A DNA stretch of 5,531 nt from a virus (IMGVR_UViG_3300029212_000224); one strand, 5' to 3'. Shown: positions 1 to 5,531, numbered from the stretch's first letter. Numbers and translations are program-made. The notes: a model not told the origin generated them from the sequence alone.

Positions 1-19
1 CTATTTGATAAATATTAAA

Positions 20-1315
20 TTAATTTTTCATTGCTTCGTTATGGGGCATGGTTGGGGCAAACTCGCTTAACTGTGTATTTAACAAAGCTACCTGTGCATT
101 ATTGTTTTCAGACATCCATTTTCCGTATACCTGAAATACCATTTGCGCATCTGCATGGCCCATCTGGTTTGCTATAAATGCCGGGTTAGCACCAGCTGTC
201 AGCGACCAGCAGGCATAAGTATGTCTCGACTGATATGATTTTCGATGGCGGAGTCCGGCACGTTTTATCGCTGCGTCCCACATCTGCCTTATTGAGTCAA
301 CGGTAAAATGGTCACCATAATTTTTTACTCTCGCTGACACTTCAGGTTGAAAAACAAAGGTGCATTTTTGTTTTTCTGTTCTGCCATACTCTCTGAGGTG
401 AACATCAATGATATGCTCTTTGCTCAGTCTCGTTAATGTCATCTGACTCCGGAGAGCGTCGATTGCTGGCTTAATAAGATGAATGACCCGATTGGTTCCC
501 GCCTGTGTTTTTGGTACCGTGAAACGGTCTTTTGCTAAATTTCTCCTGATCATCATTGTTCCATTTTTCAGATCTATGTCCTCCCATCCAAGTGCACACA
601 GCTCACCAGGGCGAACGCCAGTATAAACAGAAACACACCATAAATTTTTTGCTTGCTGATTTCTGCACGCATCGATAAGACGGATAAATTCCTCCCGCGA
701 AAGAGGATCCGGAATGGTTCTTGATTCCTTTAATGGCGAGATCCCCTTAAACGGATTATCTGCCAGGTAACCGTTATCAACACCAAACTGGAACACGGCG
801 TTAAGATTTGTTATGTAATTATTTACAGTTACAGCCGATCTCCCTGGTTGTGTAACAATATAGTTACTTTTGGGGATCTGGTATCCAGTCAGTAGCTCTT
901 TACGAACCTCCAGTAATTTTTCTTTATTAATCGATGAGGCAAGATTTTTTTCACCGATTATGCTCAGGATATTTTTGATGACGGCACGGTATGTGTTGAG
1001 TGATGTTTTGGCGACTTCAGTTTCTTTCAGTGCCAAAAATTTTTCAGCCAGTTCTTTTATGGTTAAATCTTGTCGGGCCTCACCAAATTTTTCCAGATTG
1101 CGTGAGGAGGGAAACTGTTTTGCATAGTCGAAAACACCAGTTTTTATTGCGTAACAAACAGAGGAGCGTAGTTCACCTGCAACGCGCCTGTTTTTTGATG
1201 TGTCAGGAACCCCCAGATTTTCCCTGACTCTTACGCCTTTATAAACAAACCAGATACGTAATTTCCCTCCATGGTTTTCCACGCCTGTCGGATATTTCAT
1301 TTCAACTTCTCTCAT
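20..1315 (-). CDS. int: phage-type tyrosine integrase (site-specific recombinase)
   Basis: 431-aa ORF. N-terminus (MKYPTGVENHGGKLRIWFVYKGVRVRENLG) looks like an integrase arm-binding domain. C-terminal catalytic region has GVRPGE (Arg box), SRHTYACW (H/R box) and MGHADAQMVFQVYGKW with the putative catalytic Tyr at nt 125-127. The start may be the second ATG at 1298-1300 (MKYPTG...), which has a purine-rich GAGAAG stretch upstream; the first ATG at 1313-1315 has no obvious SD. Confidence 0.9.
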   Translation of the reverse strand: MREVEMKYPTGVENHGGKLRIWFVYKGVRVRENLGVPDTSKNRRVAGELRSSVCYAIKTGVFDYAKQFPSSRNLEKFGEARQDLTIKELAEKFLALKETEVAKTSLNTYRAVIKNILSIIGEKNLASSINKEKLLEVRKELLTGYQIPKSNYIVTQPGRSAVTVNNYITNLNAVFQFGVDNGYLADNPFKGISPLKESRTIPDPLSREEFIRLIDACRNQQAKNLWCVSVYTGVRPGELCALGWEDIDLKNGTMMIRRNLAKDRFTVPKTQAGTNRVIHLIKPAIDALRSQMTLTRLSKEHIIDVHLREYGRTEKQKCTFVFQPEVSARVKNYGDHFTVDSIRQMWDAAIKRAGLRHRKSYQSRHTYACWSLTAGANPAFIANQMGHADAQMVFQVYGKWMSENNNAQVALLNTQLSEFAPTMPHNEAMKN

Positions 1316-1334
1316 TAGTTAGTGTGGCTTTTAG

Positions 1335-1586
1335 TCAAGTAAGATGACGTCTTGGTCTCGCTGATGCCTGGCGCTCAATCCAGCGATCAATTTCTTCCAG
1401 GTTGTAAAAGCATGGACTGTTATCCCATGGCATACCGTCATGAGCGACATGCTTATATTCCCTTCCTTCCATAAACGATTTTTCCCGGGCCTTTTTTAAC
1501 GTACCTTTTTTTATTCCTTTCAGCGCAATTAACTGCTCTTCGGATACCCATTTGCCGGGAGAGACAATCATGATTACTTCGCTCAT
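1335..1586 (-). CDS. xis: excisionase-like small DNA-binding protein (Xis-like)
   Basis: 83-aa ORF immediately upstream of int on the same strand, 19-nt gap, the classic xis-int arrangement. Contains a GREY motif (MEGREYKHVAHDG) reminiscent of lambda Xis (DGREYLF). AAGAGATAAAGAAA purine-rich region precedes the ATG. Assignment is by context and motif only. Confidence 0.7.
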   Translation of the reverse strand: MSEVIMIVSPGKWVSEEQLIALKGIKKGTLKKAREKSFMEGREYKHVAHDGMPWDNSPCFYNLEEIDRWIERQASARPRRHLT

Positions 1587-1615
1587 CGATTTCTTTATCT
1601 CTTACATCAGACGAG

Positions 1616-1647
1616 CGCCGGTTGCAGAATACCAGTCACAACCGGCG
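1616..1647 (-). other. perfect 9-bp inverted repeat (stem-loop) between the exonuclease gene and xis
   Basis: CGCCGGTTG (1616-1624) and CAACCGGCG (1639-1647) separated by a 14-nt loop, lying 11 nt after the exonuclease stop codon and 29 nt before the xis start. No U-tract follows on the transcribed strand, so it is not a canonical intrinsic terminator. Confidence 0.4.
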
Positions 1648-1658
1648 ACAGTTGAACA

Positions 1659-3728
1659 TTAAGAATCAGCCTGACTCGGGATCAGTTTTTGCCAGATAAC
1701 TGAAACGTATTTTGCCTGGTAACGGGCGTCATCAAGTGCATTATGGCGCTCACCTTCGAATGGAATAGCCGTTCTGGCATCGAAGTCTATGGCTTTCCCC
1801 AGCTCAACGATTGTGCGTACATCGCGATCGTTGTAGTAACGCCACGGGCAGGGGATCCCCTGCCGTTCGTATGAACGGCGCAAAATCGTGTTGTCGAAGT
1901 TGGCTCCATTTCCCCAAACCTGAACAAAAAATTCACCGGAGTTTTCGTCGATAAATTCCCGCAATTGTAACAGTGCATCATCTAACGGGATTTCATCGGT
2001 CATAATGGCAGATTGCGCTTCGCGTGATTGCTTAAGCCACCATTTAATGGTGTCCCGATCAATGACTCCGCCAGCAGTTTCCAGATCGATAGTCTTACTA
2101 AATTCCGGTCCCATATCTCCGGTTTGCGGATCGAAAAATATTGCACCTATTGAGATGATCGGGGCATCAGGATTTTTTCCCATGGTTTCAAGGTCGATCA
2201 TTAGATGGTCACACGTCCTGCTGGTGGATGTGATTTCGTGATGACCGTTCACCTTAATTGGGTGATCTGCCGTCTCGCCAGTTTCATTATCGCTATTGTG
2301 ATGCTGATTGCCGCCAGTGTTCTCCTTGTGTGGATGTTCAGCGCCTTCCATTTCCTCCGGATCATCTTCCTGAACTTCAACCTGATACTCTTCATCGAAT
2401 GTTTCTTGGTATGTTGCGTCGCCCATCACCGCGCCACAATCAGGGCAGTTGCCGCCGCCGGTCTGACCGCAGGCGGTGCAGGCTTTTTCCACTTCCTGTT
2501 GCGCCACTGGTTCAGGCTGTTTCGTTTCTGGCTCGTTTTGTAACGCATTTGGACTGTTTTGTTCCGCTTTTTGGTAGTTCCGTTCCGATTCATGCTGGTT
2601 CTGGTTCACAGAATCGCGGGTCTGGATCCCCTTAACCCATTTCGGATCATTCGGGTCACTAATCCCTTCAACAAATTCACCACGTGATGCAGCAAGCAAC
2701 TTATCGGCGTCAGGCTGGCTGATATTGGCTGCCTGCATAATTTTGTTTACTTCGTCAGCGGTAACTTTTATCGGCTCTGGTTGTTCTGAATCTTCAGCGG
2801 TATCTACATTTTGCGGTAAGCCCGTGTATGTGCCATTTTTTCGGGCAAAATATTCTTCTTTTGTGATTTCAGTGGCGCCAGCAGCCAGTGCCTTATCCAG
2901 ACCAGAAAGTTTGTTTGCGCGACCGTATTTTTCTCCGTCCTTATCTGCGAAGAGGAAATAGAACGGCCCCTCACGCTCTACAGATGGTTCAGCTTCCGGC
3001 GCGGTTTCATTTTTTGGGATATCAGATACCTCAGTTTCCACTGCATCAGTTTGTGTTTCTGATGACTGGAGAACAGCAACAGTGCCCAGGTCTGTTTCTT
3101 CATTCTCAAACACGCCCTTTGTCGTCAGGTATTCGCAGATATATTTGTTCAGTGCTACGGGATCTTTGTGAATGTCGATCGGACGCTCACGGACAAGGCC
3201 AAAAATAGTTTGGCGGTCGTAGCGAAGGGCATCAGGCTGTTTGCGTATTGATGCCGAGATACGCTTCCAGTCTTCGCGGTCGTTGTCGATAACTTCTTTT
3301 TTTGCCCAGCGATGGATGCTGCCGTCAATGTTTCCGGCATCCACATCACCAGGGCAGAGAGCGTAGGCCAGTTCGTCATCCAGTGTTTTCCATGTCTGCT
3401 TGTATTCGCGATGAATGGCAGCAATGACCGAGCTGATTTTTCCTGTTGAATTTTCAGTGTACTGTTGATTGGCTCTGGCGCGGGCGAGATCAACAACAGA
3501 CGTGTATTTTCCGGTTTCCTTGCGTTCACCTTCGCGACGTTTTTTCCAGATGCGCATCTCTGCCTGAATTTCGGGCCATTTAGCACCAGGAATACATTTA
3601 TGCTTAACCCACCCAATGGCGTGCAACTTAAGCTCCGGATACATGGCGTTAACTTCTGGCATTTTCATCAACGCTTCAACGATATGTCCGTCGAATGTTG
3701 CCATGTCTTTGAAAGAGCGCCCGAACAT
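1659..3728 (-). CDS. multidomain protein with C-terminal DEDDh (DnaQ-like) 3'-5' exonuclease domain; of the kind often annotated as exodeoxyribonuclease VIII-like in prophages
   Basis: 689-aa ORF. C-terminal domain (about aa 505-689, nt 1662-2216) carries the full DEDDh motif set: MIDLETMG (D512, E514), GNGANFDNTIL (D612), ERHNALDDARY (H662, D667). A CxxC-x7-CxxC zinc-ribbon-like motif (CTACGQTGGGNCPDC) lies at nt 2436-2480, flanked by acidic low-complexity linkers. Start is uncertain: no SD before the first ATG (3726-3728), and an in-frame stop sits 3 codons upstream (3735-3737). Confidence 0.8.
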   Translation of the reverse strand: MFGRSFKDMATFDGHIVEALMKMPEVNAMYPELKLHAIGWVKHKCIPGAKWPEIQAEMRIWKKRREGERKETGKYTSVVDLARARANQQYTENSTGKISSVIAAIHREYKQTWKTLDDELAYALCPGDVDAGNIDGSIHRWAKKEVIDNDREDWKRISASIRKQPDALRYDRQTIFGLVRERPIDIHKDPVALNKYICEYLTTKGVFENEETDLGTVAVLQSSETQTDAVETEVSDIPKNETAPEAEPSVEREGPFYFLFADKDGEKYGRANKLSGLDKALAAGATEITKEEYFARKNGTYTGLPQNVDTAEDSEQPEPIKVTADEVNKIMQAANISQPDADKLLAASRGEFVEGISDPNDPKWVKGIQTRDSVNQNQHESERNYQKAEQNSPNALQNEPETKQPEPVAQQEVEKACTACGQTGGGNCPDCGAVMGDATYQETFDEEYQVEVQEDDPEEMEGAEHPHKENTGGNQHHNSDNETGETADHPIKVNGHHEITSTSRTCDHLMIDLETMGKNPDAPIISIGAIFFDPQTGDMGPEFSKTIDLETAGGVIDRDTIKWWLKQSREAQSAIMTDEIPLDDALLQLREFIDENSGEFFVQVWGNGANFDNTILRRSYERQGIPCPWRYYNDRDVRTIVELGKAIDFDARTAIPFEGERHNALDDARYQAKYVSVIWQKLIPSQADS

Positions 3729-4122
3729 CGATGTTCAGCGTGTCACAGATGAAGGTGGCGCGGTTGATCAGCGAGCGCTTGGCGTTAATCGAGTGAAGAT
3801 ATTCGAACGCTGGAAGGCTATCGACACTAGGGATAAGCGTGAAAAGTTCACGGCGCTAGTGCCTGCAATTATGGAGGCTATCCGGATTAATGATTTCAGG
3901 TTGTATCGTGAAATTAGTGACGGAAAAAGCATCACGTACATGATCGCCGGGTTAAACAAAGAATATGGCGATGTGGTGGAGTCCGGACTGCTTTTTGCTG
4001 ATCCTGCCGTAGTGGATCGTGAAACTGACGAACTTATAGAAAAAGCAATTGCTTTCAAACTTGCGTATCGACAGCAATACCAACAAAAAGCTGGATGGAA
4101 TTATGAGCCTTCTTTTTGCTGA
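3703..4122 (+). CDS. hypothetical protein, start uncertain, possibly 5'-truncated
   Basis: Protein-like composition from about 3703 onward (SLKERPNIDVQRVTDEGGAVDQRALGVNRVKIFERWKAIDTRDK...). The tracked ORF begins at 3616, but 3616-3702 overlaps the opposite-strand exonuclease gene and translates to an antisense-looking, Ser/hydrophobic-rich peptide. No SD at any candidate start (ATG 3616, 3703, 3871; GTG 3793). The 3' end overlaps the next gene by 20 nt, which suggests translational coupling. No recognisable family. Confidence 0.45.
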   Translation: MSLKERPNIDVQRVTDEGGAVDQRALGVNRVKIFERWKAIDTRDKREKFTALVPAIMEAIRINDFRLYREISDGKSITYMIAGLNKEYGDVVESGLLFADPAVVDRETDELIEKAIAFKLAYRQQYQQKAGWNYEPSFC

Positions 4123-5068
4123 ACGCCCACTGGTTATAAACACACAGCTTGCGATGAAGATTGGCTTAAATGAAGCCATTGTGTTGCAGCAGTTGCATTA
4201 CTGGTTGAGAGATACCAATTCCGGCATGGAATGTGATGGTGTTCGCTGGATTTACAACACAACGGAACAATGGCTGGAACAGTTCCCATTCTGGTCAGAG
4301 TCAACGTTAAAGCGCGCGTTTGCAAGTCTGAAAACGCTGGGGCTTTTGCGTTGTGAAAAGCTCAATAAATCAAAGCGCGATATGACCAATTTCTACACGA
4401 TCAACTATGGGAGCGAGCTTTTAGATGGTGGCAAATTGAACGAATCCATCGGTTCAAAATGCGCCGCTCCATCAGGTCAAAATGACACGATGGAAGAGGT
4501 CAAAATGAAACGCTCCATTGGTTCAAAACGACCCAATGTCATCGGGTCAAAATGGCCTGATGATCTTACAGAGAATACAACAGAGATTACTACAGAGAAT
4601 AAAAACACTTTTCGTCCGGAAGCTTCGCAACCGGACCCGCAGACCGCTGAACAGGATTTTTTAACCCGGAACCCCGACGCGGTTGTGTTTAGTGCGAAAA
4701 AACGCCAGTGGGGTAGCAGGGAGGATTTGGCGTGTGCGCAGTGGATTTGGGGGCGGATCGTGAACCTTTACGAACAGGCTGCCAGCGACGATGGAGAGAT
4801 CATGCGACCAAAAGAGCCTAACTGGACAGCCTGGGCCAATGACGTGCGCACAATGCGGATGCTGGATGGCAGAAGCCACAGACAAATTTGCGAAATGTTT
4901 GGTCGGGTACAGCGAGATCCATTCTGGGTAAAAAACATCATGAGCCCGTCAAAACTCCGCGAAAAATGGGACGAACTGGTCATCCGCTTGGGACGTTCAC
5001 CTGTACAGCGTTGTGTGAATCATATTTCTGAACCGGATACAGAAATTCCGCCTGGTTTCAGGGGATAA
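4103..5068 (+). CDS. phage replication initiator: N-terminal winged-helix DNA-binding domain plus C-terminal DnaT-like (primosomal protein I-like) domain
   Basis: Tracked ORF starts at a TTG (4049); the first ATG at 4103 (MSLLFAERPLVINTQLAMKIGLNEAIVLQQLHYWL...) is the more likely start. The N-terminal region resembles origin-binding domains of phage initiators. The C-terminus ends ...VNHISEPDTEIPPGFRG, which matches my recollection of the E. coli DnaT C-terminus (...SEPDSQIPPGFRG). A direct-repeat array lies in the interdomain linker, as in lambda O. Confidence 0.8.
   Translation: MSLLFAERPLVINTQLAMKIGLNEAIVLQQLHYWLRDTNSGMECDGVRWIYNTTEQWLEQFPFWSESTLKRAFASLKTLGLLRCEKLNKSKRDMTNFYTINYGSELLDGGKLNESIGSKCAAPSGQNDTMEEVKMKRSIGSKRPNVIGSKWPDDLTENTTEITTENKNTFRPEASQPDPQTAEQDFLTRNPDAVVFSAKKRQWGSREDLACAQWIWGRIVNLYEQAASDDGEIMRPKEPNWTAWANDVRTMRMLDGRSHRQICEMFGRVQRDPFWVKNIMSPSKLREKWDELVIRLGRSPVQRCVNHISEPDTEIPPGFRG
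4446..4554. repeat. candidate replication-origin iteron array (5 direct repeats, 23-bp period)
   Basis: Direct repeats with core GGT(T)CAAAA(T/C)G at 4448-4461, 4471-4484, 4494-4507, 4517-4530 and 4541-4554; spacing 23, 23, 23, 24 bp. A degenerate sixth copy may lie at about 4424-4437 (GATGGTGGCAAATTG). The repeats fall in different reading frames of the host ORF (IGSK / SGQN / EVKM), so conservation is at the DNA level. Confidence 0.6.
4566..4606. repeat. A-rich ACAGAGA(A/T)T triple repeat, possible DNA-unwinding element next to the iterons
   Basis: ACAGAGA at 4568-4574, 4580-4586 and 4592-4598 (12-bp period), followed by AATAAAAACA. It sits immediately 3' of the iteron array, mirroring the iterons-then-AT-rich layout of lambda ori. 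It is in frame (encodes TENTTEITTENKN), so a protein-level repeat cannot be excluded. Confidence 0.4.
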
Positions 5069-5096
5069 GTGTTGATTTCAGGTCATGAGGTAATTT

Positions 5097-5103
5097 TAAG
5101 GAG
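5097..5103 (+). promoter_or_regulatory. Shine-Dalgarno sequence for the 5109 ORF
   Basis: AAGGAGG located 5 nt upstream of the GTG start at 5109. Confidence 0.65.
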
Positions 5104-5108
5104 GACTT

Positions 5109-5531
5109 GTGGCAAAAGTTTTTACACAGGAAGAGCGGGAAAAAATTAAAGAGCAGGTGGTCGAACTTGTGCGCCAGAGCGGTCGCGAGACATTACGACA
5201 GTTGGAAGCTAAAACAGGTGCGACAAGATATCTGATGAGCATTCTTGCCAGAGAGCTGGTTGCCAGTGGTTATGTATACAACTCCGGCTACGGGTTATTC
5301 CCGTCTGAACAGGCACGAAAGGACTGGCAAAATGCCCGCAAAAAACTCTCTAGGGCGAAGGTGAAGAAACCCGCTGTGGTTGATCCGGACCTTATCTGGT
5401 CACTACCTGATGGAGAAATACGTCGCTACGACAGTCGTCTAAACATAATCTGTCGCGAGTGCCGGAAGAGCGAAGTTATGCAGCGCATATTGTCGTTTTA
5501 TCAGGGAAATGTTCGGTATCTATTTAAGTGA
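5109..5531 (+). CDS. hypothetical small protein with putative winged-helix N-terminus
   Basis: 140-aa ORF with GTG start at 5109, preceded by a canonical AAGGAGG SD at 5097-5103 (5-nt spacer). N-terminal segment RETLRQLEAKTGATRYLMSILARELVASGYV has HTH-like character, followed by a basic stretch (ARKKLSRAKVKKP). Stop codon TGA at 5529-5531 is the last codon of the window. Not a DnaC or P-type helicase loader (no Walker A). Confidence 0.7.
   Translation: MAKVFTQEEREKIKEQVVELVRQSGRETLRQLEAKTGATRYLMSILARELVASGYVYNSGYGLFPSEQARKDWQNARKKLSRAKVKKPAVVDPDLIWSLPDGEIRRYDSRLNIICRECRKSEVMQRILSFYQGNVRYLFK

What the first reader, a model, noticed from the sequence alone, without database searches (positions are those of the whole stretch)
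3565..3740. Head-to-head gene junction with no room for divergent promoters; possible deletion junction
The minus-strand exonuclease ORF is capped by an in-frame stop at 3735-3737, so its first possible ATG is 3726-3728. The plus-strand ORF is open from 3568, with ATGs at 3616 and 3703. The two therefore overlap 5' end to 5' end, neither has a recognisable SD, and there is no intergenic space for promoters or operators. In a lambdoid layout one would expect kil/gam/N, the repressor, cro and cII between the recombination and replication genes. The simplest reading is a deletion that fused an N-truncated exonuclease gene to a 5'-truncated plus-strand gene; the alternative is truly overlapping divergent starts with promoters inside coding sequence.
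Basis: inference. Interest (0 to 1): 0.5.

Follow-up and report, generated by a model that had tools for sequence, protein, structure and literature searches.

The report
Deletion scar in Qin-type prophage
The head-to-head gene junction is the scar of a 3,086-base deletion that removed the repressor switch and the cell-division-inhibitor genes from a defective E. coli prophage, leaving two beheaded pseudogenes; this is ordinary prophage decay.

Summary
The breakpoint is at window 3707-3709, a 3-bp microhomology CTT. Window 1-3709 and 3707-5531 match E. coli AREA_C483 at 99.97% and 100%, but 3,086 bp apart. Three phage genome records (HannyBb, PhiR42_1, mEp460_ev081) show the same split. The missing block holds codons 1-141 of an 823-aa exonuclease, ydfD, dicB, the DicF sRNA, the ydfC/B/A region, a DicA-family repressor, a DicC-family Cro, both early promoters by analogy with K-12 Qin, and codons 1-36 of the CII-equivalent YdaT. 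The element is a Qin-family defective prophage next to rspB. The overlapping ORF starts are accidental: each ORF reads a little way into antisense sequence of the other gene. No promoter-like site lies in 3300-4200. The junction is real, since four independently assembled contigs carry it. It is rare, since none of 5,426 complete E. coli genomes has it. At least five other deletion alleles of the same region exist, and some reuse breakpoints within 3-5 nt, which I could not explain. Interest is low.

The parts
20..1315 (-). Tyrosine integrase of the prophage. The ORF is 431 aa from the first ATG; annotated relatives use a 426-aa start.
   Evidence: ORF. Annotated as integrase in HannyBb, PhiR42_1 and AREA_C483. 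Pfam Arm-DNA-bind_2 and Phage_integrase hits on the identical gene in L005.
1335..1586 (-). Excisionase (DUF1233 family)
   Evidence: Pfam PF06806, 108 bits. Annotated as excisionase in relatives.
1659..3709 (-). 3' remnant of the exonuclease gene (ydfE homologue). Native residues 142-823 of 823 are kept. The C-terminal Rv2179c-like 3'-5' exoribonuclease domain (about 1692-2207) is intact. The start codon, ribosome-binding site and residues 1-141 are lost.
   Evidence: Window 1-3709 matches L009 6001-9709 at 99.97%, while the parent gene runs to L009 10130. Pfam PF16473, E=1.8e-67, at residues 508-679 of the 689-aa ORF.
3707..3709 (.). Deletion junction. The 3-bp microhomology CTT is shared by both parental ends, and 3,086 bp are missing relative to AREA_C483.
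   Evidence: Base-by-base three-way alignments. BLAST piece ends are 3709 and 3707.
3710..3728 (-). Accidental 5' extension of the exonuclease ORF into antisense ydaT sequence. It supplies 7 non-native residues (MFGRSFK) and the ATG at 3728-3726. The in-frame stop is at 3737-3735.
   Evidence: The parent protein reads ...LLQEDMATFDGH where the window reads MFGRSFKDMATFDGH.
3568..3706 (+). Accidental upstream extension of the ydaT frame through antisense exonuclease sequence, containing the ATGs at 3616 and 3703. Not native coding sequence.
   Evidence: The same antisense ORF (MACNLSSGYMALTSG...) exists inside the intact exonuclease gene of the parent at L009 9616..9966. The deletion happened to join it in frame to ydaT.
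3707..4122 (+). 3' remnant of ydaT (CII-equivalent regulator). Native residues 37-173 of 173 are kept. The start codon, the overlap with dicC and the first 36 residues are lost.
   Evidence: Window 3707-5531 matches L009 12793-14617 at 100%, while the parent gene is L009 12687-13208. Pfam YdaT_toxin scores 26.8 bits against a cutoff of 21. Weak alignment of parent residues 2-93 to YdaT structures 3c4r and 8bt1.
4103..5068 (+). Replication-initiation O-like gene (321 aa), intact, overlapping the ydaT end by 20 nt.
   Evidence: Annotated 'replication initiation O-like' or 'phage replication protein O' in relatives. Identical 321-aa gene called in L005-L007. No Pfam or NCBIfam hit.
5109..5531 (+). 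DUF977 / Ren-like gene (140 aa), intact.
   Evidence: Pfam PF06163, 100.7 bits. Annotations.

Best explanation
The junction is a scar, not a regulatory device. An ancestor carried a Qin-family lambdoid prophage next to rspB, with this order: int - xis - exonuclease - ydfD - dicB - DicF - ydfC/B/A region - dicA (repressor) - dicC (cro) - ydaT (cII equivalent) - O-like - DUF977. A single 3,086-bp deletion joined a point inside exonuclease codon 141 to a point inside ydaT codon 36, at a shared CTT. That much is shown. I infer the mechanism to be RecA-independent illegitimate recombination at microhomology (replication slippage or end-joining of a break). The deletion removed both divergent early promoters and their operators, the repressor and the Cro, and the toxic dicB, DicF and ydfD genes. 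I infer it was tolerated because the repressor was lost together with the genes and promoter it silences. What remains are two 5'-truncated pseudogenes lying head to head. Their apparent overlapping starts arise because each frame happens to stay open for a few codons (minus strand, 7) or about 46 codons (plus strand) in antisense sequence of the other gene, and meets chance ATGs there. Neither remnant keeps its native promoter, ribosome-binding site or start codon. The prophage remnant can no longer run an immunity switch or early transcription.
For: 1. Collinearity with a gap. Window 1-3709 matches L009 6001-9709 (1 mismatch) and window 3707-5531 matches L009 12793-14617 (0 mismatches) in E. 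coli AREA_C483. HannyBb, PhiR42_1 and mEp460_ev081 match the whole window in two pieces spanning about 8.5-8.6 kb; the missing block measures 3,107 bp in HannyBb and 2,971 bp in PhiR42_1.
2. Gene lengths. The intact genes are 823 aa and 173 aa, against window ORFs of 689 aa and 139 or 168 aa with non-native N-termini.
3. Content of the gap. ydfD and dicB are annotated. DicF scores 72.5 bits in Rfam against a gathering score of 48. NCBIfam gives DicA 224.7 bits (cutoff 101), DicC 165 (cutoff 130) and DicB 132.8 (cutoff 100).
4. The long form is the common one. 1,368 of 5,426 complete E. coli genomes hold both flanks within one place, and none has this junction.
5. The junction is not an assembly error. 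The exact 61-mer across it occurs in four independently assembled contigs (Logan and ENA), one of which shows the rspA-rspB-int context. The junction-specific 139-aa product is on record in JGI/IMG, Logan and ENA.
6. No sigma-70-like promoter lies in 3300-4200.
7. PGAP labels the analogous remnants in H6 and FCI51 'incomplete; missing N-terminus'.
8. DicA represses dicBp, and dicB and DicF are toxic when derepressed (PMC10448788).
Against: Nothing contradicts the deletion itself. The mechanism is inferred only: 3 bp of microhomology is weak. The nearby in-register ACGATAT match (16 of 40 identical, reached by 3.3% of random offsets) was chosen after seeing the data. The selective argument that the repressor had to be lost along with its targets is not tested. 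181 genomes keep dicB without dicA, which is viable presumably because dicBp is also gone. Whether either remnant is still transcribed or translated cannot be decided from sequence.
Confidence: 0.96

Rival explanations
1. These are real overlapping divergent genes. Both ORFs are complete and are transcribed from promoters embedded in each other's coding sequence.
For: Both ORFs begin with ATG and are long. Gene callers did call a 139-aa product from ATG 3703 and a 669-aa product on the other strand.
Against: Both are shorter than their full-length homologues and carry non-native N-termini encoded by antisense sequence of the other gene. No Shine-Dalgarno sequence is present. There are 0 promoter-like sites in 3300-4200. 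The arrangement is absent from 5,426 complete genomes and from all phage records.
Confidence: 0.02
2. The junction is an assembly or chimera artefact that joins two parts of one prophage.
For: Prophage regions are repeat-rich, and no complete E. coli genome carries the junction.
Against: An identical junction 61-mer is present in four contigs from different samples and assemblers, at 99.9-100% identity to the window over 1.2-5.5 kb.
Confidence: 0.01
3. The short form is ancestral, and the 3.1-kb block in other genomes is an insertion.
For: Lambdoid phages are mosaics and modules are exchanged.
Against: The junction cuts two ORFs that are complete only in the long form. The block is the canonical immunity and early-left region, not a mobile element. 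The long form occurs in phage genome records and in roughly a thousand or more E. coli genomes.
Confidence: 0.01

Closest known systems
Cryptic prophage Qin (Kim) of E. coli K-12
   Same: It sits at the same chromosomal site (rspB side) and has the same gene order: int - exonuclease (ydfE) - ydfD - dicB - dicF - ydfCBA - dicA - dicC - ydaT-like (ydfX). This is seen in the intact relatives.
   Different: K-12 keeps the dic module and has lost most of the exonuclease (ydfE is a pseudogene cut by IS2E), xis and the O-like gene. The window keeps those and has lost the dic module, so the two show complementary decay.
Prophage pseudogenisation by internal deletion (domestication or decay of defective prophages)
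   Same: An internal deletion removes regulatory and lethal genes, leaves truncated ORFs, and has short microhomology at the joint.
   Different: Nothing distinctive. This allele is simply a rare one.
Other deletion alleles of the same region: 042-type, H5/H6, FCI51, MB06234, FORC_082
   Same: All remove part or all of the dicA/dicC/dicBF block. H5/H6 and FCI51 also fuse a truncated exonuclease head to head with a truncated ydaT.
   Different: Their breakpoints differ. Those alleles reuse two breakpoint hotspots (L009 about 12965 and about 10685), and the window's junction (L009 9709|12793) uses neither.
Lambda immunity region (cI-PRM/PR-cro-cII with PL leftward operon)
   Same: The deleted block is its functional analogue: DicA corresponds to CI, DicC to Cro, dicBp to PL and YdaT to CII (PMC10448788, PMC9986795).
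   Different: The families are unrelated in sequence. The leftward operon carries dicB and DicF rather than N, gam and kil.

Membership tests
Deletion junction (pseudogene scar) in a prophage | Both flanks are collinear with an intact relative that has extra sequence between them | tested here: met
   99.97% and 100% identity to AREA_C483 with 3,086 bp intervening. Three phage records show the same split.
Deletion junction (pseudogene scar) in a prophage | The genes at the joint are truncated relative to full-length homologues | tested here: met
   The exonuclease lacks residues 1-141 of 823 and YdaT lacks residues 1-36 of 173.
Deletion junction (pseudogene scar) in a prophage | The junction is reproducible in independent data, so it is not an assembly artefact | tested here: met
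   The exact 61-mer is in L005-L008 from four samples.
Qin-family defective lambdoid prophage | Integration beside rspB/ynfP with the order int - xis - exonuclease (ydfE homologue) | tested here: met
   L005, which carries the window sequence, shows rspA-rspB-int-xis-exo. K-12 Qin layout.
Qin-family defective lambdoid prophage | Presence of the dicA/dicC switch and the dicBF operon | tested here: not met
   Absent from the window because it is the deleted block. Present in the parent allele.
True divergent overlapping gene pair with internal promoters | Both genes are full length and promoter or RBS signals are present | tested here: not met
   Both are truncated. There are 0 promoter-like sites and no Shine-Dalgarno sequence.
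YdaT family (CII-equivalent, POU-like HTH plus tetramerisation helix) | Pfam PF06254 scores above its gathering threshold | tested here: met
   26.8 bits against a cutoff of 21 for the remnant, and 26.1 for the parent.
YdaT family (CII-equivalent, POU-like HTH plus tetramerisation helix) | Complete N-terminal DNA-binding domain | tested here: inconclusive
   Parent residues 2-93 align only weakly to YdaT structures 3c4r and 8bt1 (E about 0.05-0.07). On that alignment the lost residues 1-36 would include helices alpha1-alpha2 (helix positions from PMC9986795).
RecE / exodeoxyribonuclease VIII | NCBIfam equivalog NF007259 scores above its cutoff | tested here: not met
   286 bits against a cutoff of 1269, and only a central stretch matches. 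The catalytic domain is an Rv2179c-like 3'-5' exoribonuclease.

The most novel reading that the evidence does not exclude
The dic/immunity block of Qin-family prophages may be lost through a site-preferring process rather than at random. Among six deletion alleles, three resume within the same 5 nt of ydaT, at the 8-bp palindrome ATCCGGAT. Two others end 3 nt apart between dicF and dicB. A fragile site or a nuclease or gyrase target could repeatedly trigger disarming deletions. The window's junction would then be one more, off-hotspot, product of the same instability.
Probability: 0.12. Interest if true: 0.4.

Novelty: already known. Interest (0 to 1): 0.13.

Why it matters
It matters mainly for annotation. 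The ORFs 1659..3728 (minus strand) and 3616/3703..4122 (plus strand) should be flagged as 5'-truncated pseudogenes, not as an overlapping divergent pair. Carriers of this Qin allele lack DicB, DicF and DicA, which are known to affect cell division, phage receptor function and host gene regulation, so they differ physiologically from dic-positive strains. The finding also adds one allele to a series of recurrent deletions showing how defective prophages lose their lethal and regulatory core while keeping int, xis, replication genes and cargo genes.

Tried and rejected
- An exact 30-mer across the junction found nothing in genome contigs. That collection holds one genome per species, so the result is uninformative.
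- Exact look-ups of the 689-aa and 168-aa ORF products found nothing, because gene callers choose other starts. The 139-aa product from ATG 3703 did find the junction-bearing contigs.
- A PDB sequence search with the full YdaT at the default threshold found nothing. At E<=10 the two YdaT structures were among the top four hits, but weakly, so the claim that the HTH is lost stays tentative.
- I considered RecE/exoVIII identity for the exonuclease and rejected it on the NCBIfam cutoff.
- I considered an IS-mediated deletion. No IS sequence or scar is present at the junction.
- I considered whether extended in-register homology drove the deletion. There is only a 7-nt ACGATAT match 22 nt away, of borderline and post-hoc significance.
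- I did not predict structures or run large protein searches, because the answer did not depend on them.

Full report
**Observation.**
- On the minus strand an ORF of 689 aa runs 3728 to 1659. Its first ATG is at 3728-3726, and an in-frame TGA at 3737-3735 caps it.
- On the plus strand TGA lies at 3565-3567. The frame is then open to 4122, with ATGs at 3616 and 3703.
- The two ORFs overlap 5' to 5' by 26 or 113 nt.
- None of the three ATGs is preceded by a Shine-Dalgarno-like sequence.
- A sigma-70 consensus scan of 3300-4200 found no site on either strand, against 1.1 expected.

**What it is.** Megablast of the whole window against phage records gave three genomes that cover it completely, but in two pieces spread over about 8.5-8.6 kb: Escherichia phages HannyBb, PhiR42_1 and mEp460_ev081.
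- Local BLAST put the piece ends at window 3709 and 3707.
- Against complete E. coli genomes, the best records (AREA_C483 and 1218KP) match at 100.0%, again in two pieces over 8,617 bp.
- In AREA_C483 (locus L009), window 1-3709 equals L009 6001-9709 with one mismatch. Window 3707-5531 equals L009 12793-14617 with none.
- Removing 3,086 bp from that parent therefore reproduces the window apart from one SNP.
- A three-way alignment shows both parental ends carry CTT at the joint, a 3-bp microhomology at window 3707-3709.

**What was lost.** In the parent the missing block contains:
- codons 1-141 of an 823-aa exonuclease;
- ydfD (lysis protein) and dicB (NCBIfam 132.8 bits, cutoff 100);
- the DicF sRNA (Rfam 72.5 bits, gathering score 48);
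- the ydfC/B/A region;
- a DicA-family repressor (224.7 bits, cutoff 101) and a DicC-family Cro (165 bits, cutoff 130);
- codons 1-36 of a 173-aa YdaT-family protein.

By analogy with K-12 Qin (PMC10448788), the divergent early promoters and operators lie between and beside dicA and dicC. They are therefore gone too.

YdaT is the functional equivalent of lambda CII. It has an N-terminal POU-like HTH domain and a C-terminal tetramerisation helix (PMC9986795). The parent's residues 2-93 align, weakly, to the YdaT structures 3c4r and 8bt1. On that alignment the lost residues probably include the first two helices of the DNA-binding domain.

**Why the ORFs appear to overlap.**
- The minus-strand remnant keeps native residues 142-823. 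These include the intact C-terminal Rv2179c-like 3'-5' exoribonuclease domain (Pfam E=1.8e-67).
- Its first seven residues (MFGRSFK) are read from antisense ydaT sequence, up to a chance ATG.
- The plus-strand remnant keeps native YdaT residues 37-173.
- Upstream of the joint, that frame continues through antisense exonuclease sequence. This antisense ORF already exists inside the intact gene of the parent at L009 9616..9966. The deletion joined it in frame.
- The ATGs at 3616 and 3703 come from that antisense ORF, so the overlap is a by-product of the deletion and not a design.

**Context.** The contig L005 carries the window sequence (99.98% identical, same junction). It shows rspA-rspB immediately left of the integrase, which is the attachment side of cryptic prophage Qin in K-12. 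K-12 has rspB - ynfP - intQ' - IS2E - ydfE' - ydfD - dicB - dicF - ydfCBA - dicA - dicC - ydfX. The window is therefore a Qin-family allele that has lost exactly the block K-12 retains. The parent in AREA_C483 is already defective, with an IS3 and capsid gene fragments a few kb to the right.

**Reality and frequency.**
- The exact 61-mer across the joint occurs in four contigs from different samples and assemblers.
- The junction-specific 139-aa product is recorded in JGI/IMG, Logan and ENA.
- No complete E. coli genome (0 of 5,426) and no phage record has the junction.
- 1,368 genomes hold both flanks within one place. Of these, about 190 have shorter spacings caused by other deletions.
- The long form is therefore the norm, and it is the form found in phage genome records.

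**Mechanism and consequences.** This part is inferred.
- A 3-bp microhomology with no IS or repeat at the ends points to RecA-independent illegitimate recombination, either slippage or break joining.
- An in-register ACGATAT match 22 nt from the joint is only borderline, and I noticed it after the fact.
- DicA represses dicBp, and DicB and DicF are toxic when derepressed.
- Removing the repressor together with the promoter and the toxic genes is therefore a viable route. Removing dicA alone would not be.
- Afterwards the element has no immunity switch and no early promoters.
- The ydaT remnant, the O-like gene and the DUF977 gene have lost their PR-equivalent. The exonuclease remnant, and xis and int if they too depended on leftward early transcription, have lost their PL-equivalent.

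**Rivals.** Three alternatives are each contradicted by the comparisons above and together get about 4%:
- true divergent overlapping genes;
- an assembly artefact;
- a short form that is ancestral.

**Side observation.** The same region carries at least five other deletion alleles in complete genomes:
- 042-type (181 genomes): keeps the exonuclease, ydfD and dicB, and loses DicF through the 5' part of ydaT.
- H5/H6 and FCI51: truncated exonuclease fused to truncated ydaT, like the window.
- MB06234: loses DicF through the 5' part of dicC.
- FORC_082: loses the 5' part of the exonuclease through ydfA.

The 042-type, H5/H6 and FCI51 alleles all resume within the same 5 nt of ydaT (CTA|TCC|GG, inside the palindrome ATCCGGAT). 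The left ends of 042-type and MB06234 are 3 nt apart. The right flanks of H6 and FCI51 are 99.8% identical, so serial deletion is possible. Even so, each new endpoint would have to fall within a few bases of an old one. I could not resolve whether this is a hotspot or serial nibbling. The window's own junction uses neither site.

**Verdict.** The feature is an ordinary prophage-decay scar, already understood in kind. Its main value is for correct annotation, and it adds one allele to a recurrent deletion series.

Noticed in passing
L009 12965-12969 and 10684-10687 (equivalent to window 3879-3883; the second site is inside the deleted block): Other deletion alleles of the same region reuse breakpoints. 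The 042-type (181 genomes), H5/H6 and FCI51 alleles all resume within 5 nt at the palindrome ATCCGGAT in ydaT. The 042-type and MB06234 alleles end 3 nt apart between dicF and dicB. Whether this is a hotspot or serial deletion is unresolved.
   Followed up: partly
Just right of window 5531: L005 12147-13634, L009 14935-16422, L003 6727-8562, L004 6113-8603: The slot after the DUF977 gene carries different cargo in different strains: an Sll1717-family P-loop ATPase (in the lineage with the window's junction), a retron Ec67 RT/endonuclease (H6), QueH plus a Kiwa KwaB-like gene (FCI51), and a SAM methyltransferase (the phages and FORC_082). It looks like a variable defence or moron slot.
   Followed up: no
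window 1659-3709 (exonuclease remnant): The only difference from the AREA_C483 parent across the whole window is one SNP. It changes Trp to Cys in the exonuclease remnant ('ALCPGDVD' against 'ALWPGDVD').
   Followed up: no
window 1659-3728; L009 7659-10130: Phage records often label the large 'exonuclease' as exodeoxyribonuclease VIII (RecE). It fails the RecE equivalog cutoff (286 against 1269 bits). Its only confident domain is a C-terminal Rv2179c-like 3'-5' exoribonuclease, and the K-12 pseudogene ydfE is its N-terminal fragment.
   Followed up: partly
L014 (K-12 Qin, NC_000913.3 1647174-1652708): K-12 Qin and the window show complementary decay of the same ancestral layout. K-12 keeps dicC through ydfD and has lost most of the exonuclease, xis and the O-like gene. 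The window keeps those and has lost the dic block.
   Followed up: yes
window 20-1315: The integrase ORF is 431 aa from the first ATG, but all annotated relatives use a start 5 codons downstream (426 aa, 1281 nt).
   Followed up: no
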